Below are positions 1 through 56,725 of a stretch of 64,000 bases of DNA, piece after piece. Below the pieces are notes generated by a model. It was not told the DNA's origin and ran no database searches. It saw only the letters and a list, made by a program, of their open reading frames with translations. Made by a program: the position numbers and the translations under genes. Position 1 is the first letter of the stretch; every line of letters begins with the position of its first letter. Origin of the DNA: an uncultured Candidatus Rokubacteria bacterium (GTDB lineage Bacteria; Methylomirabilota; Methylomirabilia; Rokubacteriales; CSP1-6); the NCBI GenBank assembly GCA_963743355.1, contig CAVUPM010000002.1, positions 2,546,825-2,610,824 of the forward strand, given 5' to 3'.

Positions 1-245
1 AAGACACCGACGACGCCCGTGAGCTGCTGGCCTTCGTGCTCGAGCAGTGCGCGCCGGTGGTGACCGCGGCCGCGAACGCGACCGACGGACTCGCGGCGTT
101 CCTCCGCGACCGCCCTCGGATCGTCGTCACCGATCTCGCCATGCCCGGGCACGACGGCTACTGGCTGCTGCGCCAGGTGCGGGCGCGCGCGGCCGCCGCC
201 GACGTGCGCGCCACGGCTCCGCCGGGGCGTCCCGAGCCACCCTAG
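1..245 (+). CDS. Response regulator receiver domain protein, 5' end outside the window; ORF terminates abnormally after helix alpha3 inside a copy of the dispersed repeat element
   Basis: Translation DTDDARELLAFVLEQ...IVVTDLAMPGHDGYWLLRQVRA matches the CheY-like receiver fold (D-x-x-MPG-DG); the C-terminal ...ADVRATAPPGRPEPP* and the stop at 243-245 are encoded by the repeat element (209-278). Confidence 0.55.
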   Translation, partial: DTDDARELLAFVLEQCAPVVTAAANATDGLAAFLRDRPRIVVTDLAMPGHDGYWLLRQVRARAAAADVRATAPPGRPEPP

Positions 246-278
246 GGGCTTGGGGAGCCCGTTCGAGGCCCCCCATCC
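209..278. repeat. Copy D of the dispersed GC-rich double-hairpin repeat element
   Basis: cgccacggctccgccggggcgtcccgagccaccctaggggcttggggagcccgttcgaggcccccc aligns nearly base-for-base with the copies at 12615-12712 and 44141-44225. Confidence 0.6.
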
Positions 279-281
279 TAA

Positions 282-1082
282 CTAATCCAGCAGCCGCCGC
301 CGAAGGCCGTCGACGGCACTGCGAAAGTCGTCGCCCGCCGAATCGACACCTCGCTGGATCTCGCGCCAGTCTTCGCGGAGCTTGTTCGGCAGATCGAAGC
401 CCCGCCGGGGCGCCGGGCGTGACGCGGCCGGGGCGGGCGCAGCGTCGGTCGGTGCCGCGCGTGGAGTCACCGCCGCCACCGGCGGCGAGGGCGCGATGAT
501 GGGCGCGGGCGGCGGGGCTGGGGGATCCATGGTCCGTGACGTCGACGGTGACGCGGCCGGGGCGGGCGGCTCGGACCTGGCCATCTCTTCGATCGGCCTC
601 GCGAGAGTCGGCGGCACGGGTCTGACGGCAGGCGAAGCGCCCGGCCGGGTCCCCGCCGGCGGCGGGGTCGGCGCAGGCCGCTCGACCACCGGCCGCGGTG
701 GGGCGGCCTCGCGCCGGCGCAGCGCGTCCTGCAGCTCTCGAATCCGAGCCTCGGTCTCCATCAGCCGCGACTCCTGCCCTGCGACCTTCTCGCCAAGCGC
801 CGGGACCTGGGCGTCGGACGCCGGCACCGCAACGGCCGCTGGCGACGGTGTGGGCGAGGGCTGAACGAGCACGATGGCAATCAGGATGGCCGTCGCGGCG
901 AAGCACGCGGCGGCCACCGTGTGGCCGAGGCGGGTCAGGATGAGACGGCGGTTGGCTCGGTCAGGCGCGTCCTCGTCGCCCGGAGTGAAGCCGTAAAGCA
1001 CCACGAGGATGCAGATGACGACGGCACCGAGGGCGCTGAGGGCCACTGCGGTGGCGAGCGCGGCCGGGGCGAACGCAGGCAT
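282..1082 (-). CDS. Hypothetical membrane-anchored protein with two TM helices, a coiled-coil segment and a long Pro/Ala-rich tail
   Basis: Reading from the internal Met (MPAFAPAALATAVALSALGAVVICILVVLYGF...): hydrophobic helices, then EARIRELQDALRRRE, then P/A/S/T-rich low-complexity region; no recognisable family. Confidence 0.4.
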   Translation of the reverse strand: MPAFAPAALATAVALSALGAVVICILVVLYGFTPGDEDAPDRANRRLILTRLGHTVAAACFAATAILIAIVLVQPSPTPSPAAVAVPASDAQVPALGEKVAGQESRLMETEARIRELQDALRRREAAPPRPVVERPAPTPPPAGTRPGASPAVRPVPPTLARPIEEMARSEPPAPAASPSTSRTMDPPAPPPAPIIAPSPPVAAVTPRAAPTDAAPAPAASRPAPRRGFDLPNKLREDWREIQRGVDSAGDDFRSAVDGLRRRLLD

Positions 1083-10050: not shown

Positions 10051-10359
10051 TTTCTGCGATTGATGAATCTCGTGCTACGTGGTGACGCCGGGCCCCGGAC
10101 CCGAGGGCCGCGGGCGCGCCATCACGGCGGCCGTCGTCGCCGTTCGAGCGCAGGGGGCGGCGAGCGAGCCGCCGAGGATTCGGCTGGTCCGCGCCCGAGC
10201 CCCCGCGGGGGGATGGGGGCCCCGAGCGAGCCGGGCAGGCGCGCCCGCGGCCCTCGGGCCTGGCGCCCGGCGTCACCAGACTCCACGAGGATCGTTCGCC
10301 CCGCGGCGTCGGACTTCCGCATTCACGTGTGGCTGAGCGGGACTGCTACAATCCGGGGC

Positions 10360-11473: not shown

Positions 11474-12580
11474 GTGACGATCGTCATCGCGGGCGGCGGG
11501 ACCGGGGGCCACACCAGCCCCGGACTCGCCGTGGCCACGCTGTTGCGCGAGCGCGGCGTGGGCCACGCCTGGATCGGCAGTCGGGACGGCGTCGAAGCGC
11601 GGCGCGCGCCCGAAGAAGGCATCCCCTACCACGCCATCGCGACCGGCAAGCTGCGCCGCTACTGGGCGTGGCGCAACGTCACCGACCTCGCGATCAACGT
11701 GCCGGCCGGCATCGTCGGCGCCCACGTCCTGCTGCGCCGGCTGCGCCCGCGCGTCGTGCTGGCCACCGGCGGCTTCGTCGCCCTGCCCGTTGTGCTGGGC
11801 GCCGCGCTGGCCGGCATCCCGGTCGTCGTCCACGAGCAGACGGCGGTGCCGGGCCTGGCCAACCGGATCGCCGCCCGGGGCGCGCGCCGCATCGCGGTGA
11901 CGTTCGCGGAGAGCGCGCGACACTTCCCGGCCGACCGGGTGGTCGTCACCGGCAACCCGCTGCGTCCGGACCTGCGCGCCGGCTCGCGGGCGGATGCGGT
12001 GGGGCGCTTCGGCCTGGATGCCGCGTTGCCCCTCGTCTACGTCACGGGCGGCGCGCTGGGCGCGCACGCCATCAACCGGGTCGTCGGCGAGATCGCGGGC
12101 GACCTGCTCGCGCACGCCCAGGTGATCCACCAGTGCGGCGACAACGCCGTCACCGGCGACCGCGCCTGGCTCGAGGCCAGGCGCAACGCGCTGCCGGCAG
12201 CACTCGCGCGCCGGTACACGGTGCAGCCGTGGGTCGGCCCGGAGCTGGCCGGCATTTACGCGACCGCGGCGCTCGTGGTCGCCCGCTCCGGCGCCGGCAC
12301 CGTGAACGAATGCTGCCAGCTCGGGCTGCCGGCCCTCTACGTCCCGATGCCCGGCGCCAGCGGCGACGAGCAGACGGCCAACGCCCGGCTGGTCGGCCGT
12401 GTCGGCGGCTGCTCGATCGCGCCCCAGGCCTCGCTCACACCCGAGCTGCTCCTCGAGCGCATCCGCGGCCTCCTGGCCGAGCCCGCCCGACTCAAAGACA
12501 TGGGCGAGCGCGCCCGCACCCTGGCGATTCCCGACGCCGCCGAGCGCCTCGTCAACCTCCTGCTGGAGATCGTCGGGTGA
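11474..12580 (+). CDS. murG: MurG-family glycosyltransferase (UDP-GlcNAc:lipid I GlcNAc transferase)
   Basis: GTG start; GGTGGH motif near the N-terminus (IAGGGTGGHTSPGLAV) and GT28 C-terminal domain. Confidence 0.8.
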   Translation: MTIVIAGGGTGGHTSPGLAVATLLRERGVGHAWIGSRDGVEARRAPEEGIPYHAIATGKLRRYWAWRNVTDLAINVPAGIVGAHVLLRRLRPRVVLATGGFVALPVVLGAALAGIPVVVHEQTAVPGLANRIAARGARRIAVTFAESARHFPADRVVVTGNPLRPDLRAGSRADAVGRFGLDAALPLVYVTGGALGAHAINRVVGEIAGDLLAHAQVIHQCGDNAVTGDRAWLEARRNALPAALARRYTVQPWVGPELAGIYATAALVVARSGAGTVNECCQLGLPALYVPMPGASGDEQTANARLVGRVGGCSIAPQASLTPELLLERIRGLLAEPARLKDMGERARTLAIPDAAERLVNLLLEIVG

Positions 12581-12585
12581 TCAGG

Positions 12586-13377
12586 CTACCGGCGTTTCGT
12601 GGTGTGGCGGCTCGACGGATATCGAGGAGCGCCCCGGCTCCGCCGGGGCGCTCCGAGCGTCGGGGGGGTCTGGGGGGCCATCTCGGGGCCCCCCATCAGG
12701 TCGAAGCGGGCCGGGCAGGAATCGCAGCGCGGGATCGTGCGGCAGTGTGCCTTGGCAACCGCGACCAGCAAGGCGTGGAACTCGTTGAAGAGCGCGGGGT
12801 CCGAGGGCAGGTGCGCCTCGAGGAACGCGCGCGTCTCCTCGTAGCCGGCGTGGAGCCGCAGCAGGCGGTGACGCACGAGCACGCGGCGCGTGTAGGCGTC
12901 GGCGACGAAGACCGGACGGCCGGCGGCGTAGAGCAGGATCGCGTCGGCCGTCTCCGGCCCCAGGCCGGGGACCCCGAGCAGCTCACGCCGCACGGGCCCC
13001 AGCGGCGCCCGGCGCATGGCGCGGAAGTCGCCGCCGAAGCGCTCGAGCAGCCAGCCGGTGAAGTCGAGCAGGCGGCGCGCCTTCAGGCGATAGGTGCCGG
13101 CCGGTCGCACCAGCGCGCCGAGGGCGACGACATCGCAGCCGGCCAGGCGTCTCGGGGTCAGCAGTCGATGGGCCCGGAGCGCGGCCACGGCCCGAGCGGC
13201 GCCCGGCCAGGCCGTGTGCTGGGTCAGGATCGCTCCGACGGCCACCTCGAAGGCCGTGCGGGCCGGCCACCAGCCCTGCGGGCCGTAGCGCGCCTGCAGC
13301 GCGCGGTAGAGCCGCAGCAGGCGCGCCTTGCTGGGATCGCGCGGCGGGCCGGGGATCCGGCGCCAGCCCGGCAGCAT
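12586..13377 (-). CDS. Endonuclease III-like HhH-GPD DNA glycosylase family protein with an atypical, repeat-derived C-terminus
   Basis: HhH-GPD motif LLGVPGLGPETADAILLYAAGRPVFVADAYTRRV; Fe-S motif HCRTIPRCDSC keeps 3 Cys but the fourth is replaced by a tail (MGGPEMAPQTPPTLGAPRRSRG...) encoded by the repeat element. Confidence 0.6.
   Translation of the reverse strand: MLPGWRRIPGPPRDPSKARLLRLYRALQARYGPQGWWPARTAFEVAVGAILTQHTAWPGAARAVAALRAHRLLTPRRLAGCDVVALGALVRPAGTYRLKARRLLDFTGWLLERFGGDFRAMRRAPLGPVRRELLGVPGLGPETADAILLYAAGRPVFVADAYTRRVLVRHRLLRLHAGYEETRAFLEAHLPSDPALFNEFHALLVAVAKAHCRTIPRCDSCPARFDLMGGPEMAPQTPPTLGAPRRSRGAPRYPSSRHTTKRR
12615..12712. repeat. Copy A of the dispersed GC-rich double-hairpin repeat element, overlapping the 3' end of the endonuclease III-like gene
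   Basis: Hairpin 1 GGAGCGCCCCGG-ctccg-CCGGGGCGCTCC (12-bp stem) and hairpin 2 GGGGGGCC-atctcgg-GGCCCCCC; about 90% identical to the copy at 44141-44225. Confidence 0.65.
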
Positions 13378-18959: not shown

Positions 18960-19065
18960 TCGACGGGCCGCCGAACAGCGGCCATCCGCGGCGTTGGCTC
19001 CTCGCTCTTCCCTGAGGCGCCTGCGGCATACGCCTCAGAGCTCGTGCACGAATCGCGTGGTCGAG

Positions 19066-19093
19066 GCGCGCCCCGGGTGTCCCGGGGCGCGCC
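19066..19093 (+). terminator. Candidate intrinsic terminator hairpin after the polyamine/methyltransferase operon
   Basis: Perfect palindrome GGCGCGCCCCGGG-tgt-CCCGGGGCGCGCC (13-bp stem), preceded by a second hairpin CTGAGGCG-11nt-CGCCTCAG at 19012-19038; no U-tract, as is common in high-GC genomes. Confidence 0.4.
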
Positions 19094-19141
19094 GAGCGCA
19101 TGGGGGGCGTGGGGCCCTGACCGCGAGGTAGGCTTCAGACC

Positions 19142-20320
19142 ATGCCCAGACTGACGGCGGTTGTGAGGCTCAAGCGCGGACGTGAGCAGAAGGCTCGGGT
19201 GCATCCGTGGATCTTCAAGGGCGATGTCGCCGATGCCAGCGATGTTGCGCCCGGCAGCATCGTGACGGTGGTGGATGCCGGGGGACGGTTCGTGGGGCGG
19301 GGGTTCTTCAATCCGCGGCCGGCGCTGTGCTGTCGGATCGTGACGTGGGAAGACGAGGCGGTCGACGCCCGGCTCCTGTCGCGCCGGCTCGTGGCGGCGG
19401 TCGACGCGCGGGGGCGCGGGGGAGCGGTGCCCGACGTCGGGCGGCTGGTGTGGAGCGAGGCGGACGGGTTGCCGGGGCTGGTGGTCGATCGGTACGGGCC
19501 GGGGCTGGTGGTGCAGTGTCTGACGCTGGGCATGGCGCGGGTACGGGATGACATCGTTGCCGGGCTCCGCGCCCGGGTCGGCGATCTCGCCGTGTTCAGC
19601 ATGGACGACGCCGTGGTGGCTCAACTGGAGGGCTTCGAACCGGCGGCCGGCTGGGTGGATCGGCCCGGGCCCGAGGAGATCGTGATCGACGAGGGCGGTG
19701 TGCGCTTCGCGGTGCGGCCCGGCGTCGGCCACAAGACCGGCGTCTACCTCGACCAGGCCGGTAACCGGGTAGCCGTCGGGGCCGCGGCCGGTCCCGGCGT
19801 CGCCCTGGACGTCTTCGCCTACACCGGCGGCTTCGCCTGCCACGCGCTCCAACGGGGCGCGCGGCGGGTGGTGTGCATCGAGTCCTCCCCCGAGGCCATC
19901 GCGGGCGCCCGCCGCAACCTCGAGCTGAACGGCTTCACCGAGCGCGCGGAAATCCGCGCCGTCAACGCCTTCGACGAGCTCCGCCGCCTGGACCGCGACC
20001 GCACCCGCTTCGACCTCATCGTCCTCGACCCCCCACCCTTCGCCCGCAGCCGATCAGCCCTGGACGCCGCCCTCCGCGGCTACAAGGAGATCAACCTGCG
20101 CGCGCTGCGCCTGCTGGCTCCCGGCGGCCGCCTGGCCACGTTCTCGTGCTCCCACCACGTGGACGAGACCACCTTCGAAGCCACCATCCGCGACGCCGCC
20201 ACCGACGCCGCCGTCCGTCTCCGCCTCCTCACCCGCCTGGACCAAGCCCCCGACCACCCGATCCTCCTGACCATCCCCGAGACCCGCTATCTGAAAGGAT
20301 TTCTCCTCCAAGCGCTGTGA
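19142..20320 (+). CDS. rlmI: 23S rRNA (cytosine1962-C5)-methyltransferase RlmI (PUA plus class I methyltransferase)
   Basis: N-terminal PUA-like region (RVHPWIFKGDV), SAM motif LDVFAYTGGFACHA, DPPPFARS motif IV. Confidence 0.8.
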   Translation: MPRLTAVVRLKRGREQKARVHPWIFKGDVADASDVAPGSIVTVVDAGGRFVGRGFFNPRPALCCRIVTWEDEAVDARLLSRRLVAAVDARGRGGAVPDVGRLVWSEADGLPGLVVDRYGPGLVVQCLTLGMARVRDDIVAGLRARVGDLAVFSMDDAVVAQLEGFEPAAGWVDRPGPEEIVIDEGGVRFAVRPGVGHKTGVYLDQAGNRVAVGAAAGPGVALDVFAYTGGFACHALQRGARRVVCIESSPEAIAGARRNLELNGFTERAEIRAVNAFDELRRLDRDRTRFDLIVLDPPPFARSRSALDAALRGYKEINLRALRLLAPGGRLATFSCSHHVDETTFEATIRDAATDAAVRLRLLTRLDQAPDHPILLTIPETRYLKGFLLQAL

Positions 20321-20488
20321 CCGCGCGGGGCCCGGCGCTGGCGCCGGGTGGCGGGCGAGGCACTCCCGCCGGACGAGCCGTGGCACCACCCGCAACGCAA
20401 GGCTGGCCGGGCGAGCCGGCGGGCGGGTGCCGAGCCGGACAGGGCCCGGCGCCAGCGCCGGGCCCCGCGCGGTCACAGCGCTTGGAGG
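20305..20488. repeat. Perfect 44-bp inverted repeat flanking a 96-bp spacer between convergent genes; MITE-like element or very long bidirectional terminator
   Basis: Left arm CCTCCAAGCGCTGTGACCGCGCGGGGCCCGGCGCTGGCGCCGGG (20305-20348) is the exact reverse complement of the right arm (20445-20488); the last 5 codons and stop of rlmI lie inside the left arm and the stop of the minus-strand gene abuts the right arm. Confidence 0.6.
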
Positions 20489-20489
20489 A

Positions 20490-34181: not shown

Positions 34182-34877
34182 CTAGCGGTCGCGCTTGCGG
34201 AAGCGACGGGCCTCCAGGCGGAGCAGCCGCCGGTCGACCCTCGTGAACTGAGCGCGAACCTCGCTCTGGAAGCGGTCGAGCCGCTCGTTGGTCCCTCGCA
34301 CGCCTTCGGCGACCAGCTCGATCTTCATGATGAGGCCCTCGGCGACGACCCCGGCGTGCCGACGCGTCTCCGCGCCCTGCTCGTCGACGTAGTGGCGGGT
34401 CTCCACGCCCTGCTCGTCGACGTAGCGGCGCGTCTCCACGCCCTGCTCATCGATGTAGCGGCGCGTCTCCACGCCCTGCTCATCGATGTAGCGGCGCGTC
34501 TCCACGCCCTGCTCATCGATGTAGTGACGCGTCTCCACGCCCTGCTCATCGATGTAGCGGCGCGTCTCCACGCCCTGCTCATCGATGTAGTGACGCGTCT
34601 CCACGCCCTGCTCATCGATGTAGCGGCGCGTCTCCACGCCCTGCTCATCGATGTAGTGACGCGTCTCCACGCCCTGCTCATCGATGTAGCGGCGCGTCTC
34701 CACGCCCTGCTCATCGATGTAGCGGCGGGTCTCGGCGTGACTCGCGTCGACGTCGCGACGGGTCTCGGCCGCACTCTCGTCGACACGGTGCAGGATCCGC
34801 TGTTCGAGAGCGGCCAGAGTAGCGAGCAGCTCCTGACGGAAGGGATCGGGAGACGGCTCAGGTGCGGGCGTGTCCAC
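34182..34877 (-). CDS. Hypothetical protein built around about 12 tandem copies of an 11-residue repeat ETRR(Y/H)(I/V)DEQGV, flanked by short coiled-coil-like N- and C-terminal regions
   Basis: MDTPAPEPSPDPFRQELLATLAALEQRIL...[ETRRYIDEQGV]x12...LIMKIELVAEGVRGTNERLDRFQSEVRAQFTRVDRRLLRLEARRFRKRDR; GC3-rich codons on this strand, whereas the opposite-strand ORF runs antisense into yajQ. Confidence 0.55.
   Translation of the reverse strand: MDTPAPEPSPDPFRQELLATLAALEQRILHRVDESAAETRRDVDASHAETRRYIDEQGVETRRYIDEQGVETRHYIDEQGVETRRYIDEQGVETRHYIDEQGVETRRYIDEQGVETRHYIDEQGVETRRYIDEQGVETRRYIDEQGVETRRYVDEQGVETRHYVDEQGAETRRHAGVVAEGLIMKIELVAEGVRGTNERLDRFQSEVRAQFTRVDRRLLRLEARRFRKRDR
34356..34784. repeat. Tandem array of about 13 units of a 33-bp repeat (GTAGCGGCGCGTCTCCACGCCCTGCTCATCGAT), near-identical, with alternating CGGCGC/GTGACG variants
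   Basis: Eight central units are identical apart from the 66-bp alternation (CGGCGC vs GTGACG variants); outer units progressively diverge. Confidence 0.9.
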
Positions 34878-34933
34878 GACCCGCAGTGTGGTCCGGCGGC
34901 GCCGGCAGTGTCAATGTCTCCGCCCGGAGACGG

Positions 34934-42968: not shown

Positions 42969-44141
42969 GTGAGCCCCGCCTCGACCGGGATCGTCGCGAC
43001 GGCGGCCCGGCTCGCCCGCGAATGCCTGGCGCCGCGGGCGGCCCGCTACGACCGCGACGCCGCCAACCCGGTCGACAGCTGGCGTGATCTACACGCCGAG
43101 CACCTGATCGCGGCCGCCGTCCCCACCGCCCACGGGGGCCTCGGCCTCGACATGCCCACCTACGTGGAGGTCATCCGCGCGCTGGCCCAGGGCTGCGCCA
43201 GCACCGCGATGACCCTGCACATGCACTCCACCGTCATGCGCTTCATCGCGGCGCTCGGCACCTGCGACCAGCAGCGGCGCTACTTCGGCGAGGTCGTCGA
43301 CCGCGGCCGGATGTTCGGCTCGTGGGGCAGCGAGCCGGCCGTGAGCCTGTCACGCACGTTCCTGATGGAGACGACGCTGCGCGCCGACGGCGACGGGTTC
43401 GTCGTGGACGGTGTGAAGTACTTCTGCACGATGGCGCTCGGCGCGTCCTTCTACATGGTGTGGTGCGCGCTCGACGGCGAGGCCGACATGGGCAAGGCGC
43501 TGTGCCTGGCCCTGGTGCCGGCCGACACCGCCGGCCTGGCCACCGACGGCAAGTGGGACACGCTCGGCATGCGGGGGACGTACAGCCCGTCGGTGACGCT
43601 CACCGGCGTATGGATCCCGGGCGACGCGGTGCTGGGCCGGCCGGGCGCGGCGACCCAGGTCGGCGTCGTCGAGAGCTTCGGCCTGGGCTACGCGGCGGTC
43701 TACGTCGGAATCGCCGAGGCCGCGCTGGATTTCACGCTCGACTACGCCAAGAAGCGCGTGGTGAAGCCGGAGAACGTCGCGGTCGCCCAGGACCCCACCG
43801 TGCAGCGCCACCTCGGCGGGCTCGTCGTGCACCTGGATGCCGCCCGTCTGGTGCTGCGCGCCGCCGCCGCCGGCTGGGAGGTGGCCGACGTGGCCGAGCG
43901 CGGCAACCTCGCCAACCGCGCCAAGTTCCTCGGCACCGAGGTCGGGCTGGACGTGACGTCGAAGTGCATCCAGGTCGTGGGCGGCCGCGGCGCCTACCGC
44001 GATTACCCAGTGGAGCGCGCCTTCCGCGACGCCCGTACCGCCACGCTCATGCCGCCGACGATGGACCGCATGGCGGAGCTGATTGGCAAGAGCGCGCTCG
44101 GGCTCACCGAGGGGATGTTCCGGATCAGCGGCGAGAGCTGA
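42969..44141 (+). CDS. Acyl-CoA dehydrogenase family protein
   Basis: ACAD fold; C-terminal QVVGGRGAYRDYPVERAFRDARTATL FAD/CoA-binding motif. Confidence 0.8.
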   Translation: MSPASTGIVATAARLARECLAPRAARYDRDAANPVDSWRDLHAEHLIAAAVPTAHGGLGLDMPTYVEVIRALAQGCASTAMTLHMHSTVMRFIAALGTCDQQRRYFGEVVDRGRMFGSWGSEPAVSLSRTFLMETTLRADGDGFVVDGVKYFCTMALGASFYMVWCALDGEADMGKALCLALVPADTAGLATDGKWDTLGMRGTYSPSVTLTGVWIPGDAVLGRPGAATQVGVVESFGLGYAAVYVGIAEAALDFTLDYAKKRVVKPENVAVAQDPTVQRHLGGLVVHLDAARLVLRAAAAGWEVADVAERGNLANRAKFLGTEVGLDVTSKCIQVVGGRGAYRDYPVERAFRDARTATLMPPTMDRMAELIGKSALGLTEGMFRISGES

Positions 44142-44225
44142 CGGGACATCGAGGGGCGCCACGGCTCCGCCGGGGTGCCCCGAGCGACTGGGGGGTCTAG
44201 GGGGGCCATGTCGGGGCCCCCCTAC
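44141..44225. repeat. Copy B of the dispersed GC-rich double-hairpin repeat element (intergenic, between convergent genes)
   Basis: gccacggctccgccggggtgccccgagcgactggggggtctaGGGGGGCCatgtcggGGCCCCCC. Confidence 0.65.
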
Positions 44226-44929
44226 ACTTCGAGGAAGCGCTGCTGGATCGTGGGGTCGCGGCGCAGCTCGGCCGGCGTTCCCTCGAACTGGATCCGTCCC
44301 TGGTCCATCACGTAGAGGCGGTGGGAGAGGCTCATCGCCACCTCCAGCGTCTGCTCCACCAGCAGCAGCGTCGTGCCGCGCTGGTTGATGCGGGCCAGGA
44401 TCGCGGTCAGGTTCTGCACGATCAGCGGCGCCAGCCCCTCGGTGGGCTCGTCGACCAGCATCACCGACGGCCGGGCCACCAGCCCCCGCGCGATGGCGAG
44501 CATCTGCTGCTCGCCCCCCGACAGGAAGACCCCGCGCTGATCCACGCGCTCGCGCAGCCGCGGGAAGTACTCGAAGACCTCGTCGAGAGCGCCAGGGGCC
44601 GCCCCGCCCGCGCGGCCGAGCATGCCGAGCCGCAGGTTCTCGAGCACGGTGAGGTTCGGCAGGATCCGGCGCTCCTCGGGGATCCACGCGATGCCGTGGC
44701 GGGCGATCTCGTGGGTCTCGAGGCGGCCGATGTCGACGCCGCGCAGGGTGACCCGGCCACGGCTCGGCCGCGCGATGCCCATGATCGAGCGCAGCGTGGT
44801 GGTCTTGCCGGCGCCGTTGCGCCCGATCAGCGTGACGACCTCGCCTTCGTCCAGGCGCAGCGACACGCCCTGGAGGATATGCGCCTCGCCGTAGTAGGTG
44901 TGGATGTCCTCGACGCTGAGGAACGCCAT
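44222..44929 (-). CDS. livF: Branched-chain amino-acid ABC transporter ATP-binding protein LivF
   Basis: Walker A GRNGAGKTT, signature LSGGEQQM, Walker B VMLVDEP. Confidence 0.85.
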   Translation of the reverse strand: MAFLSVEDIHTYYGEAHILQGVSLRLDEGEVVTLIGRNGAGKTTTLRSIMGIARPSRGRVTLRGVDIGRLETHEIARHGIAWIPEERRILPNLTVLENLRLGMLGRAGGAAPGALDEVFEYFPRLRERVDQRGVFLSGGEQQMLAIARGLVARPSVMLVDEPTEGLAPLIVQNLTAILARINQRGTTLLLVEQTLEVAMSLSHRLYVMDQGRIQFEGTPAELRRDPTIQQRFLEV

Positions 44930-44933
44930 CGAA

Positions 44934-45683
44934 TTAGCGGACGACGCCGAGGTAGGTCTGCTGGACGCGGTCGTTGTTGCGGATCTCCTCGGGCGTGCCC
45001 TCGGCGAGCACCTGGCCCTGGTGGAGCACGGTGATCCGGTCGGAGATCTTCATCACGACCTTCATCTTGTGCTCGACCAGGATCACGGTGCGGCCGACGG
45101 CCAGCTCGCGGATGAGGCGCATCGTCTCGTCGGTCTCCTCGGGGCTCATCCCGGCGGTCGGCTCGTCGAGCAGGAGCAGTGCCGGGTTGGACGCGAGCGC
45201 GATGCCGAGCTCCAGGTGCCGCTTCTCCCCGTGGGAGAGATGCGCGGCCAGCTGGTCGCCCTTGGCCGTGAGCCCGACCGTCTTCAGCAGGGCGGCCGCC
45301 CGGTCGCGCACGTCGTCGAGATGGTCGGCCCGCGACCAGAAGTCGAAGGCGCGCGCGGGCCCCTGGACGGCGACGCGGACGTTCTCGTGCACGGAGAGGT
45401 GCGGAAAGACATTCGTGATCTGGTACGACTTCGCGATGCCGAGCCGCACCACCGCGTGCTGGGGCAGGCCGGTGATGTCGCGGTCGTCGAAGACGATGCG
45501 CCCCGAGCTCGGCGTCGTCTCGCCCGAGATGAGCCGGAAGAAGGTCGTCTTGCCGGCGCCGTTGGGGCCGATGATCGAGCGCAGCTCGCCGCGGTGGACG
45601 ACAACGTCCACGCGATCGACGGCGATGAGGCTGCCGAACGCCCGGGTCAGGCGCTCGGTGCGCAGCAGGACGGGCTCGGGCAT
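44934..45683 (-). CDS. livG: Branched-chain amino-acid ABC transporter ATP-binding protein LivG
   Basis: Start MPEPVLLRTERLTRAFG; Walker A GPNGAGKTT, signature LSHGEKRHLEL, Walker B LLLLDEPTAG. Confidence 0.85.
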   Translation of the reverse strand: MPEPVLLRTERLTRAFGSLIAVDRVDVVVHRGELRSIIGPNGAGKTTFFRLISGETTPSSGRIVFDDRDITGLPQHAVVRLGIAKSYQITNVFPHLSVHENVRVAVQGPARAFDFWSRADHLDDVRDRAAALLKTVGLTAKGDQLAAHLSHGEKRHLELGIALASNPALLLLDEPTAGMSPEETDETMRLIRELAVGRTVILVEHKMKVVMKISDRITVLHQGQVLAEGTPEEIRNNDRVQQTYLGVVR

Positions 45684-48906: not shown

Positions 48907-49133
48907 CGTCCCCGGTCTGATATCGCGCACCGTGACAGCGGTGTCGCCGACGCGGGCGGAGGACGTACGAGATGGGGTCCGTGGACCCGTTCCCGCCACC
49001 CATCACCGTGTGCCCCCCAGCCGGATGGAGCCCAGCCACGGCCGGGCGAGGCGGCCTCCGGCCGCGTGGTGCCACGGACCCCACCTCGTACGTCCTCCGC
49101 CCGCGTCGGCGACACCGACCGGCGGCGCGGAGG

Positions 49134-55934: not shown

Positions 55935-55995
55935 GCCGCCGGGCCGGCACCCCCGAGCCACCCGGGGGGTCTGGGGGCCATGTCGGGGCCCCCCA
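55935..55995. repeat. Copy C (partial) of the dispersed GC-rich hairpin repeat element
   Basis: ggcacccccgagccacccggggggtctGGGGGCCatgtcggGGCCCCCC. Confidence 0.55.
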
Positions 55996-56026
55996 GGCAG
56001 GCTATCCCCCCGGTAAACTATCCCGC

Positions 56027-56725
56027 GTGCCGCTGCGCCGCCTGCGCTACGCGACCCTGGATGCCCTGCTCCGCCGCGAGCTGGTCCGCGAGGAGCATCC
56101 GGCCACCGCGGCGCTGATCCGCGACCTCGCCGGCGTGCGCGCGCGCGGCGCCTTCACGCGCGGGGAGTTCACGCGGATGTGCCGGTGGAAGAGCCCGCGG
56201 GCGCGCCTGCTGTGGGGGGCCAACTCCCCGGCGCGCGTCCGCGCGGTCTCTCGCGCAGTCCTGGCGACCCGCAGCGAGCGGCGCCGGATGGAACTGCTGA
56301 CGAGCCTGCGCGGCGTCGGCGTGCCCATCGCCTCCGCCATCCTCACCCTCATCGACCCGCGCCGCTACGGCGTCCTCGACATCCGCGCCTGGCAACTCCT
56401 CGTCGCCATCCGCTCCGTCCGCACGAACGCCCGCGGCCAAGCCTTCACCATCGCGCAGTGGGAGCAATACCTCTCGGCCCTACGCCACCACGCCCGTTGC
56501 CTCGGCGTCACCGCCCGTACGATCGAATACACGCTGTTCGAGTGCCACCGGAAATTTCAACAGGGGACTCTCTACGTCCGCTCCGAGCGCCGGCTCCGCC
56601 GGCGCAATCCTGTCCTCGGGGGAGGCAGCGAGGAGCGCGCCGCCAGGCGCGCGACGACCGTCGGCCGGGGAGTCCGAGGGGGCGTAGCCCCCTCGCTCAC
56701 ACGGGGGACGAAGTCCCCCGTGTGA
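56027..56725 (+). CDS. Small HhH-GPD-like (DNA-glycosylase-fold) hypothetical protein
   Basis: LTSLRGVGVPIASAILTLIDPRRYGVLDIRAWQLL resembles the helix-hairpin-helix plus Gly/Pro loop plus Asp of the EndoIII superfamily (compare LPGVGRKTANVVL...AVDTHIFRV); GTG start; the last 9 codons are the hairpin at 56698-56728. Confidence 0.45.
   Translation: MPLRRLRYATLDALLRRELVREEHPATAALIRDLAGVRARGAFTRGEFTRMCRWKSPRARLLWGANSPARVRAVSRAVLATRSERRRMELLTSLRGVGVPIASAILTLIDPRRYGVLDIRAWQLLVAIRSVRTNARGQAFTIAQWEQYLSALRHHARCLGVTARTIEYTLFECHRKFQQGTLYVRSERRLRRRNPVLGGGSEERAARRATTVGRGVRGGVAPSLTRGTKSPV

What the first reader, a model, noticed from the sequence alone, without database searches (positions are those of the whole stretch)
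44141..44225. Dispersed GC-rich double-hairpin repeat family of about 85 bp, with at least four copies in 64 kb
Highly similar copies lie at 209-278, 12615-12712, 44141-44225 and 55935-55995. Each has hairpin 1 (GGAGCGCCCCGG-ctccg-CCGGGGCGCTCC in the best copy), a spacer (cgagcgNctggggggtct) and hairpin 2 (GGGGGGCC-atgtcgg-GGCCCCCC). Copies are about 85-90% identical and sit at gene ends, convergent intergenic regions or upstream regions. This behaves like a REP/MITE-type small mobile or recombinogenic element, or possibly a family of structured RNA or terminator modules. I cannot match it to a named family from memory.
Basis: seen in the sequence. Interest (0 to 1): 0.6.

Follow-up and report, generated by a model that had tools for sequence, protein, structure and literature searches.

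The report
Double-hairpin dispersed repeat of Rokubacteria
The flagged sequence is one copy of a real, apparently undescribed family of about 90-base GC-rich two-hairpin repeats that has spread to the ends of genes throughout genomes of the uncultured soil and groundwater phylum Rokubacteria, an ordinary kind of bacterial "junk or regulatory" repeat in a lineage where none had been described.

Summary
A covariance model finds five copies in the window, all on the + strand.

There are many copies per genome at unrelated sites, singly or in head-to-tail arrays with periods of about 75-100 nt.

Anatomy: TCGAGG box, hairpin 1 (variable stem with many compensatory changes), CCGAGCG box, a run of six G, then hairpin 2 (GGGGGGCC-ATNTCGG-GGCCCCCC).

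Copies avoid divergent promoter regions. Hairpin 2 usually lies 1-7 nt from the stop codon of a converging gene. Some copies are read through, which lengthens or fuses ORFs.

Close relatives have empty sites, so the element is gained by insertion. No terminal inverted repeats, consistent target duplication, transposase or Rfam match were found, and no copy has a terminator-type T-run.

Best reading: a non-autonomous REP/BIME/RIME-like mosaic repeat. It is a new member of a known kind. Its mobilising enzyme and any effect on the host are unknown.

The parts
44137..44236 (+). The flagged copy (full). It fills the whole spacer between the stop of an acyl-CoA dehydrogenase gene (+, TGA 44139-44141) and the stop of an ABC-transporter ATPase gene (-, CTA 44222-44224).
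   Evidence: CM 85.2 bits, E 1.8e-15. Sequence. Pfam of the flanking genes. Absent from the same gene pair in relatives L121 (92% aa), L155 (87%), L127, L152 and L171.
44150..44184 (+). Hairpin 1 of the flagged copy with its flanking boxes: (T)CGAGG, stem GGGGCGCCACGG, loop CTCCG, stem CCGGGGTGCCCC, then (C)CGAG. It carries the family's frequent A.G mismatch.
   Evidence: Read. Fold. In the family, 12 of 14 pairs show changes on both sides.
44190..44195 (+). Conserved unpaired run of six G between the two hairpins.
   Evidence: Alignment columns 58-63 are 93-99% G in 137 copies. The run stays at 80-99% in 78 copies that were not selected by the search pattern.
44200..44222 (+). Hairpin 2 of the flagged copy: GGGGGGCC, loop ATGTCGG, GGCCCCCC. 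Its last C is the first base of the converging gene's stop codon.
   Evidence: The 2-3 bases on each side of the stem covary in the family (column 65 with 97: GC 38, AU 31, UA 11, CG 9).
12610..12708 (+). Best full copy (hairpin 1 at 12623-12657, G-run 12662-12668, hairpin 2 at 12672-12694). It lies between murG (+, stop 12578-12580) and an endonuclease III-related gene on the - strand. That gene's ORF reads through the whole element and ends at 12586.
   Evidence: CM 87.8 bits. Pfam. Translation ...CPARFDL-MGGPEMAPQTPP...KRR*. The same 263-aa product is on record in NCBI/ENA (P0001). Most orthologues are about 233-245 aa and end ...FDLRGRSR or similar.
19049..19152 (+). Hairpin 1 and the G-run are intact and hairpin 2 is degenerate. 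It lies between two + strand genes and ends at the ATG (19142) of a PUA/SAM-methyltransferase gene.
   Evidence: CM 52.1 bits. Alignment. Coding direction of the flanks. Pfam.
190..288 (+). Diverged copy that follows a response-regulator receiver domain cut off at profile position 70 of 111. That ORF ends inside the element at 243-245. A - strand ORF ends at 282.
   Evidence: CM 37.3 bits. Pfam. Sequence.
55964..55997 (+). Remnant copy with the spacer and hairpin 2 only. It sits in a divergent region between RNase J (-) and a + strand ORF that starts near 56027.
   Evidence: CM 29.2 bits, model positions 53-87. Pfam. Coding phase.

Best explanation
This is one copy of a lineage-restricted family of non-coding, modular, GC-rich palindromic repeats, here called a mosaic element.

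Anatomy. The unit is about 88-100 nt and reads: short head, TCGAGG, hairpin 1, CCGAGCG, a run of six G, hairpin 2, then usually a short A/T-richer tail.

What is shown:
- The family has multiplied within Rokubacteria genomes by inserting into the 3' ends of genes and the short spacers behind them.
- Insertions sometimes remove the last few codons or the stop codon of a gene.
- Units or sub-modules (hairpin 1 alone, hairpin 2 alone) can be reiterated head to tail.

What is inferred:
- The element is non-autonomous. Whatever enzyme moves it acts in trans and probably recognises the invariant parts (the CGAG boxes, the G-run, and the stem and loop of hairpin 2), most plausibly on folded single strands.
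- After insertion the hairpins tend to be kept.
- The likely effect on the host is that of REP-type elements. Stable 3'-terminal RNA hairpins would block 3'-5' exonucleases or hinder read-through between converging genes. A hairpin placed 1-7 nt after a stop codon would interfere with the terminating ribosome.
For: Real and multicopy:
- Five copies in 64 kb.
About 18 blocks come from each of two single MAGs (JACPDG01, JACPCW01).
- 213 nhmmer hits in 919 kb.

Structure kept:
- 89.6% of cells are paired against 81.4% in shuffles.
- 252 double-change cells against 70 expected, reached by 0 of 500 shuffles. Sliding the partners drops pairing to about 46-57%.
- The orthologous pair L016/L064 differs by compensatory changes in hairpin 1 (read from the alignment).

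Gained by insertion:
- The ACAD/ABC-ATPase spacer is 27 nt, 2 nt or overlapping, with no element, in relatives at 76-92% aa identity.
- L117 is filled and L088 is empty. L098 is filled and L056 is empty, with an 11-nt flanking direct repeat.
- In L063 a four-unit array sits in a livG/livF ATGA overlap that is uninterrupted in 8 homologous loci, including the window.
- The endonuclease III-related gene has its native end (...FDLRGRSR*) in a 95%-identical relative.

Placement:
- Flank orientations are (-,-) 34, (+,-) 27, (+,+) 26 and (-,+) 1.
- A converging gene's stop lies 1-7 nt from hairpin 2 in about 50 of 75 cases (mode 6 nt, 21 cases).

Not coding: the G-run and spacer vary in length, so frames differ between copies.

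REP-type roles, including stalling when a REP lies within 15 nt of a stop codon, are documented for E. coli (as summarised in PMC5082802). Repeats that extend the 3' ends of ORFs are known (PMC3184786).
Against: - No transposase was found. Clustering the ORFs of the 119 loci gives only what look like ordinary sensor, transporter and metabolic families on reading the ten largest clusters (these were not scanned against a family library). E. coli RayT finds nothing better than E = 1.7 in 919 kb.
- There are no terminal inverted repeats.
- Flanking direct repeats are not significantly above a shuffled-pair control (5-mers: 18 against 13 +/- 3).
- The two hairpins are unlike each other, which does not fit the paired ends of IS200/IS605-type elements.
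- The orthologous copies in L202 and L203 have decaying hairpin 2 stems. Not every copy is therefore under selection.
- Nothing here shows transcription, termination or mRNA stabilisation. No copy has a T-run.
- The copies used for statistics include orthologues and tandem units, and most loci were selected by an exact hairpin-2 match. Conservation and covariation counts are therefore inflated to an unknown degree.
Confidence: 0.62

Rival explanations
1. A selected cis-acting structured RNA, either a 3'-UTR or intercistronic regulatory motif or a protein-binding motif. It would be copied to many genes because the host uses it, and would work as RNA from the strand that carries the G-runs.
For: - Conservation is uneven. 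The CGAG...CGAG boxes could form a tandem sheared G.A motif, and they, the G-run and the hairpin-2 loop are near-invariant, while the hairpin-1 stem covaries.
- G:T wobble cells outnumber A:C cells 58 to 21 on the G-rich strand.
- The G-run can compete with the 5' arm of hairpin 2 for the C-run (alternative fold).
Against: - In co-directional gene pairs the element lies in either orientation relative to transcription (26 sense, 34 antisense).
- The G:T excess persists where the element should be transcribed antisense (11 to 6).
- There is no Rfam family.
- Orthologous copies decay.
- Close relatives do without it at the same genes.
Confidence: 0.17
2. The same kind of dispersed element, but specifically mobilised as single-stranded DNA by a Y1/HUH enzyme. 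It would then be a RAYT-type REP or a miniature IS200/IS605 derivative (PATE).
For: - It has two subterminal hairpins, no terminal inverted repeats and no regular target duplication.
- Several copies are bracketed by the same short sequence. CTCAG flanks L002, L090 and L022, and GATGAG flanks L063 and L043. Insertion next to a preferred short target that the element regenerates would produce this, and would also explain head-to-tail arrays.
Against: - There is no GTAG box.
- The two hairpins are dissimilar.
- No RAYT or TnpA was found in the sampled DNA.
- Neighbouring copies have mixed orientation (18 same, 19 different), so there is no sign of a replication-strand bias.
- Bracketing sequences are seen in a minority of copies only.
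Confidence: 0.12
3. Ordinary factor-independent or bidirectional terminator hairpins that arose in place behind genes and look alike through convergence or gene conversion, so that they are not mobile.
For: - Copies lie behind genes, often between converging genes, and are almost absent from divergent regions.
- The same ACAD/ABC spacer holds other GC-rich hairpins in other lineages (L139, L142, L144, L163).
- A simpler hairpin resembling hairpin 2 sits at the orthologous site in L098 where L056 has the full element.
Against: - Shared unpaired sequence (boxes, G-run, loop) over about 90 nt cannot be convergence.
- Copies occur inside coding 3' ends and operon overlaps.
- Tandem arrays occur.
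- No copy has a T-run or is flagged as terminator-like, and terminator-like sites in the window are no more frequent than in shuffles.
Confidence: 0.05
4. A small protein-coding or translationally coupled unit, like the small ORFs proposed for mycobacterial MIRUs. The reverse strand reads (A/G/T)TG GGG GGC CCC GAN ATG GCC CCC CAN ACC CCC, that is MGGPEMAPxTP.
For: - The two freely varying positions in this stretch fall on third codon positions.
- Upstream stop codons lie 1-7 nt before this ATG.
- Three read-through ORFs use this frame.
- Public gene calls include the peptide (P0001, P0003, P0004).
Against: - One of those two positions covaries with a pairing partner.
- The frame is not kept beyond the G-run, so downstream peptides differ.
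- No ribosome-binding site is conserved.
- The reverse-strand ORF shares the frame of the downstream gene in 14 of 32 cases, about the 1 in 3 expected by chance.
- All frames are open simply because the DNA is about 75% G+C.
Confidence: 0.03

Closest known systems
REP / BIME elements of enterobacteria and pseudomonads
   Same: Both are GC-rich imperfect palindromes present in hundreds of copies. Both lie behind genes and between converging genes and are rare in promoter regions. Both are often clustered. REP roles at the RNA level (3' protection, attenuation, ribosome stalling when within 15 nt of a stop codon) fit the placement seen here (PMC5082802).
   Different: The unit here is about 90 nt with two unlike hairpins and invariant unpaired boxes, not a single 35-40 nt palindrome. 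There is no GTAG box. Arrays are head to tail rather than alternating in orientation. No RAYT was found.
Mosaic palindromic repeats of alpha-proteobacteria: Br-REP1/Br-REP2 of Bradyrhizobium (PMC5082802) and, from my own knowledge, RIME elements of rhizobia
   Same: Both are composite elements of two or three palindromes of about 100 nt. Both occur in intergenic regions and overlapping 3'-UTRs of converging genes. In both, sub-modules occur alone or together, and abundance differs strongly between related lineages.
   Different: There is no sequence relationship, and the phylum is different. Here there is direct evidence of insertion into coding 3' ends and of tandem arrays.
BOX elements of Streptococcus pneumoniae (modular boxA-boxB(n)-boxC); recalled from my own knowledge
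   Same: Both are modular, with one module reiterated a variable number of times. Here hairpin 1 alone repeats with a period of 43-54 nt (L117).
   Different: BOX elements are AT-rich and unrelated in sequence. This was not tested further.
MITEs such as Correia elements of Neisseria
   Same: Both are small, non-autonomous and dispersed. Both show filled and empty sites, and both can extend or fuse ORFs (PMC3184786).
   Different: Defining terminal inverted repeats are absent. Target-site duplication is not consistently present. No parent insertion sequence is known.
MIRUs of Mycobacterium (tandem 46-101 bp intercistronic repeats); recalled from my own knowledge
   Same: Both come from high-GC organisms, form head-to-tail arrays of variable copy number between genes of an operon, and have ORFs that can run through the repeat (L063, L117).
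   Different: MIRUs are not built of hairpins and are oriented with transcription. Here both orientations occur, and the test for translational coupling gave a chance-level result.

Membership tests
REP (RAYT-associated repetitive extragenic palindrome) | Short GC-rich imperfect palindrome in many extragenic copies per genome | tested here: met
   There are five copies in 64 kb. At least 18 separate 8-kb blocks come from each of two MAGs even though the scan was truncated. Hairpins are supported by folding and covariation. However, the unit has two palindromes, and some copies overlap the ends of ORFs.
REP (RAYT-associated repetitive extragenic palindrome) | Conserved GTAG-type tetranucleotide next to the palindrome | tested here: not met
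   The consensus of 137 copies has no GTAG at a fixed position. The invariant flanks are CGAG and CGAGCG.
REP (RAYT-associated repetitive extragenic palindrome) | A RAYT (Y1 transposase) gene in the genome, typically flanked by inverted REPs | tested here: inconclusive
   tblastn and phmmer with E. coli RayT against 919 kb of element-bearing DNA gave a best E of 1.7. The one close head-to-head pair checked (L044) flanks a conserved-looking ORF that I read by eye as a YfiH-like gene (no family scan was run), not a transposase. Whole genomes could not be scanned.
BIME | Clusters of REPs in alternating orientation | tested here: not met
   Clusters are head-to-tail direct arrays with periods of about 75-100 nt.
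MITE | Terminal inverted repeats | tested here: not met
   The left end (information only in the 4 nt before TCGAGG) and the right end (CCCCCC AT...) are not complementary.
MITE | Target-site duplication of fixed length | tested here: inconclusive
   Individual cases exist: 11 nt in L098, 9 nt in L017, GATGAG in L063, and CTCAG in three loci. Shared 5-mers between flanks number 18 against 13 +/- 3 in the control.
MITE | Presence/absence at orthologous sites | tested here: met
   Window 44137-44236 against L121, L155, L127, L152 and L171. L117 against L088. L098 against L056. L063 against 8 loci. The window endonuclease III-related gene against P0002/L201.
IS200/IS605-derived miniature element (PATE) | Similar subterminal hairpins at both ends recognised by one TnpA, with insertion 3' of a fixed 4-5 nt target | tested here: not met
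   Hairpin 1 (13-14 bp, 3-5 nt loop, A.G mismatch) and hairpin 2 (8-11 bp, 7-nt loop) are unlike each other. A recurrent flanking pentamer is seen in only a minority of copies.
Intrinsic (Rho-independent) terminator | GC-rich hairpin followed directly by a T-run | tested here: not met
   No copy is reported by the terminator scan. The bases after hairpin 2 are A (92%) then T (60%), with no run of T.
Any Rfam 15 family | Score at or above the family's gathering threshold | tested here: not met
   There are 0 matches over the whole window. In E-value mode the best match is gyrA RNA at 22.5 bits against a gathering score of 45, for one copy only, and it is not repeated for the second copy.
MIRU-type intercistronic repeat | Small ORF in the repeat coupled to the flanking genes, in one orientation relative to transcription | tested here: not met
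   Both orientations occur in co-directional pairs (26 and 34). The repeat ORF shares the frame of the downstream gene in 14 of 32 cases, about chance.

The most novel reading that the evidence does not exclude
The uneven conservation may mean more than an inert selfish repeat. The invariant parts are the CGAG/CGAG boxes (able to form a tandem G.A motif), an invariant unpaired run of six G, and a fixed hairpin-2 loop. They sit beside a freely covarying hairpin-1 stem.

Two readings remain open:
- A new class of hairpin-recognising mobilisation system. This would be a non-autonomous element with no inverted ends, no regular target duplication and no RAYT, inserted at stop codons.
- A phylum-wide structured RNA or single-stranded-DNA module bound by a dedicated protein, which the host uses at the 3' ends of genes.
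Probability: 0.15. Interest if true: 0.7.

Novelty: new member of a known kind. Interest (0 to 1): 0.42.

Why it matters
- Rokubacteria are abundant, uncultured soil and groundwater bacteria with large genomes. Two literature searches here found no description of repeat families in them.
- Annotation: a defined family with a working covariance model improves annotation. Public gene calls already carry element-derived tails, for example the 263-aa endonuclease III-related protein of this genome. An apparent 994-aa fusion of two radical-SAM genes in L117 is created by one copy.
- Assembly and binning: the family is a cheap lineage marker. A few hits labelled Acidobacteria, Binatia or Anaerolineaceae may be mis-binned contigs.
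- Biology: it gives a tractable case for asking how hairpin repeats spread without recognisable transposase ends, and whether a hairpin placed 1-7 nt after a stop codon tunes expression in a high-GC organism that lacks canonical terminators.

Tried and rejected
- Rfam, at gathering thresholds over the whole window and in E-value mode on two copies, gave nothing usable.
- Viral contigs gave 0 matches to the hairpin-2 pattern.
- Transposase association: clustering 730 ORFs from the 119 loci showed no transposase-like family among the ten largest clusters read. E. coli RayT searched by tblastn and phmmer found nothing. The gene between a close head-to-head pair of copies in L044 does not look like a transposase.
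- Target-site duplication: the longest shared substrings are mostly array artefacts. The 4-, 5- and 6-mer sharing test is not significant.
- Terminal inverted repeats: none.
- Coding or translational coupling on the reverse strand: frames are not conserved, and frame agreement with the downstream gene is at chance level.
- Replication-strand or local orientation bias: 18 same against 19 different. The window's five + strand copies are therefore not meaningful.
- Transcribed-strand test from G:T against A:C: the excess on the G-rich strand (58 to 21) does not reverse in antisense contexts, so it does not identify an RNA strand.
- Canonical terminators: not met.
- Exact-sequence look-ups of two window proteins to find the source record returned nothing.
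- Two literature searches for Rokubacteria repeats returned nothing relevant.
Full report
**1. Checking the observation**

The best copy (12617-12694) reads TCGAGG-AGCGCCCCGG-CTCCG-CCGGGGCGCT-CCGAGCG-TC-GGGGGGG-TCT-GGGGGGCC-ATCTCGG-GGCCCCCC-AT. The flagged copy (44144-44222) matches it apart from a few substitutions and one extra base.

- The hairpin-2 pattern, with up to 3 mismatches, has 4 matches in the window against 0.01 expected from dinucleotide shuffles.
- I built a covariance model (R1) from 137 copies and ran it over the whole window with filters off. It finds exactly five significant matches, all on the + strand.
  - 12610-12708: 87.8 bits.
  - 44137-44236: 85.2 bits.
- 19049-19152: 52.1 bits.
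  - 190-288: 37.3 bits.
  - 55964-55997: 29.2 bits, hairpin 2 only.
- Every other match has E above 0.2, apart from reverse-strand echoes of the palindromic stems.

The family is therefore real. The window holds two full, two diverged and one remnant copy. The figure of 85-90% identity applies only to the two full copies. Both full copies fold into the two hairpins on either strand, more stably than shuffles (z = -2.7 to -3.7).

**2. Where else the element occurs**

- Almost all records are titled Candidatus Rokubacteria, Rokuibacteriota, Methylomirabilota or Methylomirabilia. Five carry other labels: Acidobacteria, Acidoferrum, Binatia, Anaerolineaceae and "uncultured bacterium".
- About 18 separate 8-kb blocks come from each of two single MAGs, JACPDG01 and JACPCW01. 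Copies are therefore numerous within a genome and lie at unrelated sites.
- nhmmer finds 213 copies in the 919 kb held.
- The viral collection has none.
- Rfam 15 has no matching family at gathering thresholds. In E-value mode there are only sub-threshold matches that are not reproduced between copies.
- Two full-text searches for repeats in Rokubacteria found nothing relevant.

The window itself is Rokubacteria-like. It is 72% G+C. Its genes match Rokubacteria MAG loci at 65-78% nucleotide identity. Orthologues of its endonuclease III-related protein are named Methylomirabilota or Rokuibacteriota by NCBI.

**3. Anatomy from 137 aligned copies (A2)**

The consensus is nnnnGCGnGnnn-TCGAGG-AGCGCCACGG-CTnCG-CCGGGGCGCT-CCGAGCG-nT-GGGGGG-TnT-GGGGGGCC-ATGTCGG-GGCCCCCC-A(T)...

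- Overall pairing: on the structure I specified, 89.6% of cells pair against 81.4% in shuffles. There are 252 cells with changes on both sides against 70 expected, reached by 0 of 500 shuffles. Sliding the 3' partners by 1-3 columns drops pairing to 46-57%.
- Hairpin 1: 12 of 14 pairs show changes on both sides. One position is a conserved A.G mismatch in 70 of 137 copies.
- Hairpin 2: the core stem hardly varies, but the 2-3 bases on each side of it covary (GC 38, AU 31, UA 11, CG 9).
- Near-invariant unpaired parts are:
  - CGAG before hairpin 1 and CGAG(CG) after it. Together these could form C-G, G.A, A.G, G-C, a tandem G.A motif. That reading is my inference.
  - The run of six G.
  - The loop AT-N-TCGG.
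- These parts stay 80-99% conserved in the 78 copies that were not selected by the search pattern. Detection by similarity still biases that figure.
- Left edge: information stops about 4 nt before TCGAGG.
- Right edge: a semi-conserved tail (A 89-92%, T 57-60%, then about 8 weakly conserved bases) follows in most copies. The window's two full copies have only AT or nothing.

The family is modular.

- Hairpin 1 alone can be reiterated with periods of 43-54 nt (L117).
- A simpler hairpin resembling hairpin 2, without hairpin 1, sits in L098 at the site where its orthologue L056 carries the full element.
- Extra hairpins are inserted in some copies (L010, L031, L066, L081).
- Whole units form head-to-tail arrays with periods of about 75-100 nt. 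Of 157 clusters, 115 are single, 32 double, 6 triple and 4 larger.

**4. Placement**

I assigned the coding direction of flanks from codon-position G+C and oriented each element with hairpin 1 on the left.

- The (left, right) gene directions are (-,-) 34, (+,-) 27, (+,+) 26 and (-,+) 1. The element is almost never in a divergent promoter region. It is always behind at least one gene, and in co-directional pairs it lies in either orientation.
- When the right-hand gene converges on hairpin 2 (88 of 124 assignable cases), its stop codon lies 1-7 nt beyond the C-run in about 50 of 75 cases, with modes at 6 nt (21 cases) and 3 nt (10 cases).
- On the left the stop-to-TCGAGG distance is broad, 1-26 nt in most cases.
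- In the window the contexts are as follows.
  - 44137-44236, 12610-12708 and 190-288 lie between converging genes.
  - 19049-19152 lies between two + strand genes and ends at a start codon.
  - The remnant at 55964-55997 is in a divergent spacer next to RNase J.
- None of the copies has a T-run or is flagged as terminator-like. Terminator-like sites in the window are no more frequent than in shuffles.

**5. Evidence that copies are gained by insertion**

(a) The flagged copy. I fetched 80 metagenome loci that encode relatives of the acyl-CoA dehydrogenase.
- Those that keep the converging ABC-ATPase gene have no element. The spacer is 27 nt in L121 (92% aa identity), 2 nt in L155 (87%) and 20-26 nt in L127 and L152. 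The stops overlap in L171.
- In the window the element replaces that spacer and the last codons of the dehydrogenase (...ISGES* against ...ISGAPGDATAT* in L121). It abuts the unchanged stop of the ATPase gene.
- In L086 a homologue of the same dehydrogenase has the element at its 3' end in the opposite orientation and reads through it.

(b) The copy at 12610-12708.
- The endonuclease III-related ORF on the - strand reads through the whole element...CPARFDL-MGGPEMAPQTPPTLGAPRRSRGAPRYPSSRHTTKRR*.
- The identical 263-aa protein is on record (P0001).
- Most orthologues are about 233-245 aa and end soon after ...FDL. The 95%-identical P0002 ends ...FDLRGRSR*.
- P0003 and P0004 (84% and 80% identical) carry diverged element-derived tails.
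- DNA alignment shows homology resuming at AGGTCGAA immediately after CCCCCCAT(C).
- L202 and L203 keep the murG-element-endonuclease arrangement, but their hairpin 2 is decaying.

(c) Other pairs.
- L117 is filled and L088 is empty.
- L098 is filled and L056 is empty, with an 11-nt direct repeat (CTGAGGAGGGC) on both sides in L098.
- In L063 a four-unit array sits exactly in a livG/livF ATGA overlap and is bracketed by GATGAG. Eight homologous loci, including the window (44929-44934), are uninterrupted.

(d) Copies can also persist. L016/L064, L031/L097 and L052/L060 hold the element at orthologous positions. The L016/L064 pair differs by compensatory changes in hairpin 1 (read).

**6. What I could not find**

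- Terminal inverted repeats: none.
- Target duplication: single cases are striking, but flanking 5-mers are shared in 18 of 54 copies against 13 +/- 3 for shuffled pairs.
- Transposase: the ORFs of the 119 loci cluster into what look like ordinary sensor, transporter and metabolic families, judged by reading the ten largest clusters, which were not scanned against a family library. E. coli RayT gives nothing better than E = 1.7. Because the scan was truncated and each block is only 8 kb, this does not exclude a transposase elsewhere in the genomes.
- Orientation bias: neighbouring clusters agree 18 times and differ 19 times.

**7. Coding or RNA gene?**

The reverse strand reads (A/G/T)TG GGG GGC CCC GAN ATG GCC CCC CAN ACC CCC, and both free positions are third codon positions.

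Evidence against a coding unit:
- One of those positions covaries with a pairing partner.
- The G-run and spacer vary in length, so downstream peptides differ.
- The reverse-strand ORF shares the frame of the downstream gene in 14 of 32 cases, about the 1 in 3 expected by chance.
- ORFs stay open only because the sequence is about 75% G+C. In L117 this produces a 994-aa ORF that fuses two radical-SAM genes through the element.

On the transcribed strand: G:T cells exceed A:C cells 58 to 21 on the G-rich strand. The excess does not reverse where the element should be transcribed antisense. It therefore does not identify an RNA strand.

**8. Interpretation**

Shown:
- A lineage-restricted, multicopy, modular double-hairpin repeat.
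- It is gained by insertion at the 3' ends of genes, is sometimes reiterated, is sometimes read through, and is excluded from divergent regions.

Inferred:
- It is non-autonomous.
- Its invariant parts are what the unknown mobilising activity recognises, probably on folded single strands.
- Its effect on the host is REP-like. REP elements protect mRNA 3' ends, attenuate read-through, and stall ribosomes when they lie within 15 nt of a stop codon (Liang et al. 2015, as summarised in PMC5082802).
- Repeats that extend the 3' ends of ORFs are a known phenomenon (PMC3184786).

The closest described analogues in architecture are mosaic palindromic repeats such as Br-REP1, which has three palindromes and lies between converging genes at about 200 sites (PMC5082802). 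From my own knowledge, RIME and BOX elements are also close.

Strict membership fails for REP (no GTAG box, no RAYT shown, arrays not alternating), for MITE (no inverted ends), for IS200/IS605 miniatures (unlike hairpins), for intrinsic terminators (no T-run) and for MIRUs.

**9. Verdict**

The finding is real and correctly read in outline. It is a new member of a known kind of bacterial repeat, in a phylum where none was described. Interest is moderate.

The open points are the mobilising enzyme, the meaning of the invariant G-run and CGAG boxes, and whether the stop-codon-proximal hairpin has a regulatory effect.

Caveats:
- Most loci were selected by an exact hairpin-2 match.
- Copies include orthologues and tandem units, so counts are not independent events.
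- Gene directions rest on codon-position G+C rather than annotation.

Noticed in passing
window 20304-20489; 48939-49117; 10069-10289: There are three long inverted repeats, with arms of 45, 46 and 60 nt (100%, 98% and 82% complementary) separated by about 90-100 nt. The first lies between converging genes, and its arms include the last 17 nt of the + strand gene. The second and third have about 87% and 78% matches in other Rokubacteria loci (L102:6728-6848, L118:5060-5211). A similar long inverted repeat sits beside the endonuclease III-related gene in L201. These are probably further repeat families.
   Followed up: partly
window 34363-34784 (inside the - strand ORF 34182-34910): A 33-bp tandem repeat of about 13 units at 94% identity encodes an 11-residue protein repeat (ETRRYIDEQGV) in a small protein.
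   Followed up: partly
window 3-245: A response-regulator receiver domain is cut off at profile position 70 of 111, exactly where the diverged element copy begins. The copy has also lost its 5' box. This looks like a deletion or rearrangement that left a truncated gene.
   Followed up: no
L117:105-3089 (- strand): One element copy (with hairpin 1 duplicated) joins two neighbouring radical-SAM genes in frame into a single 994-aa ORF. In the orthologous L088 the two genes are separate, with a spacer of about 35-50 nt.
   Followed up: partly
L139, L142, L144 (about 100 nt after the acyl-CoA dehydrogenase stop) and L163: A different GC-rich two-hairpin element (GGAGGGGGGC-TTT-GCCCCCCTTCC ... GCGCCGGC-AAAA-GCCGGCGC) occupies the same converging spacer in another lineage. 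L152 has a truncated version. The site seems to attract hairpin repeats.
   Followed up: no
window 12586-13377 (- strand) and proteins P0001, P0003, P0004, P0035: Public gene predictions include element-derived C-terminal tails (MGGPEMAP..., MGDRDMAG..., TRGPAMAH...). Protein databases for this phylum therefore contain repeat-encoded extensions.
   Followed up: partly
L004, L006, L013, L058, L075: Five contigs that carry the exact hairpin-2 pattern are labelled as other taxa (uncultured bacterium, Acidoferrum, Acidobacteria, Anaerolineaceae, Binatia). They may be mis-binned Rokubacteria contigs.
   Followed up: no
L030:1954-2985 and L096:5525-6470: Two indels of about 1 kb separate otherwise collinear contigs that are 85-90% identical. 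They contain no copy of the element, and I did not look at their content.
   Followed up: no
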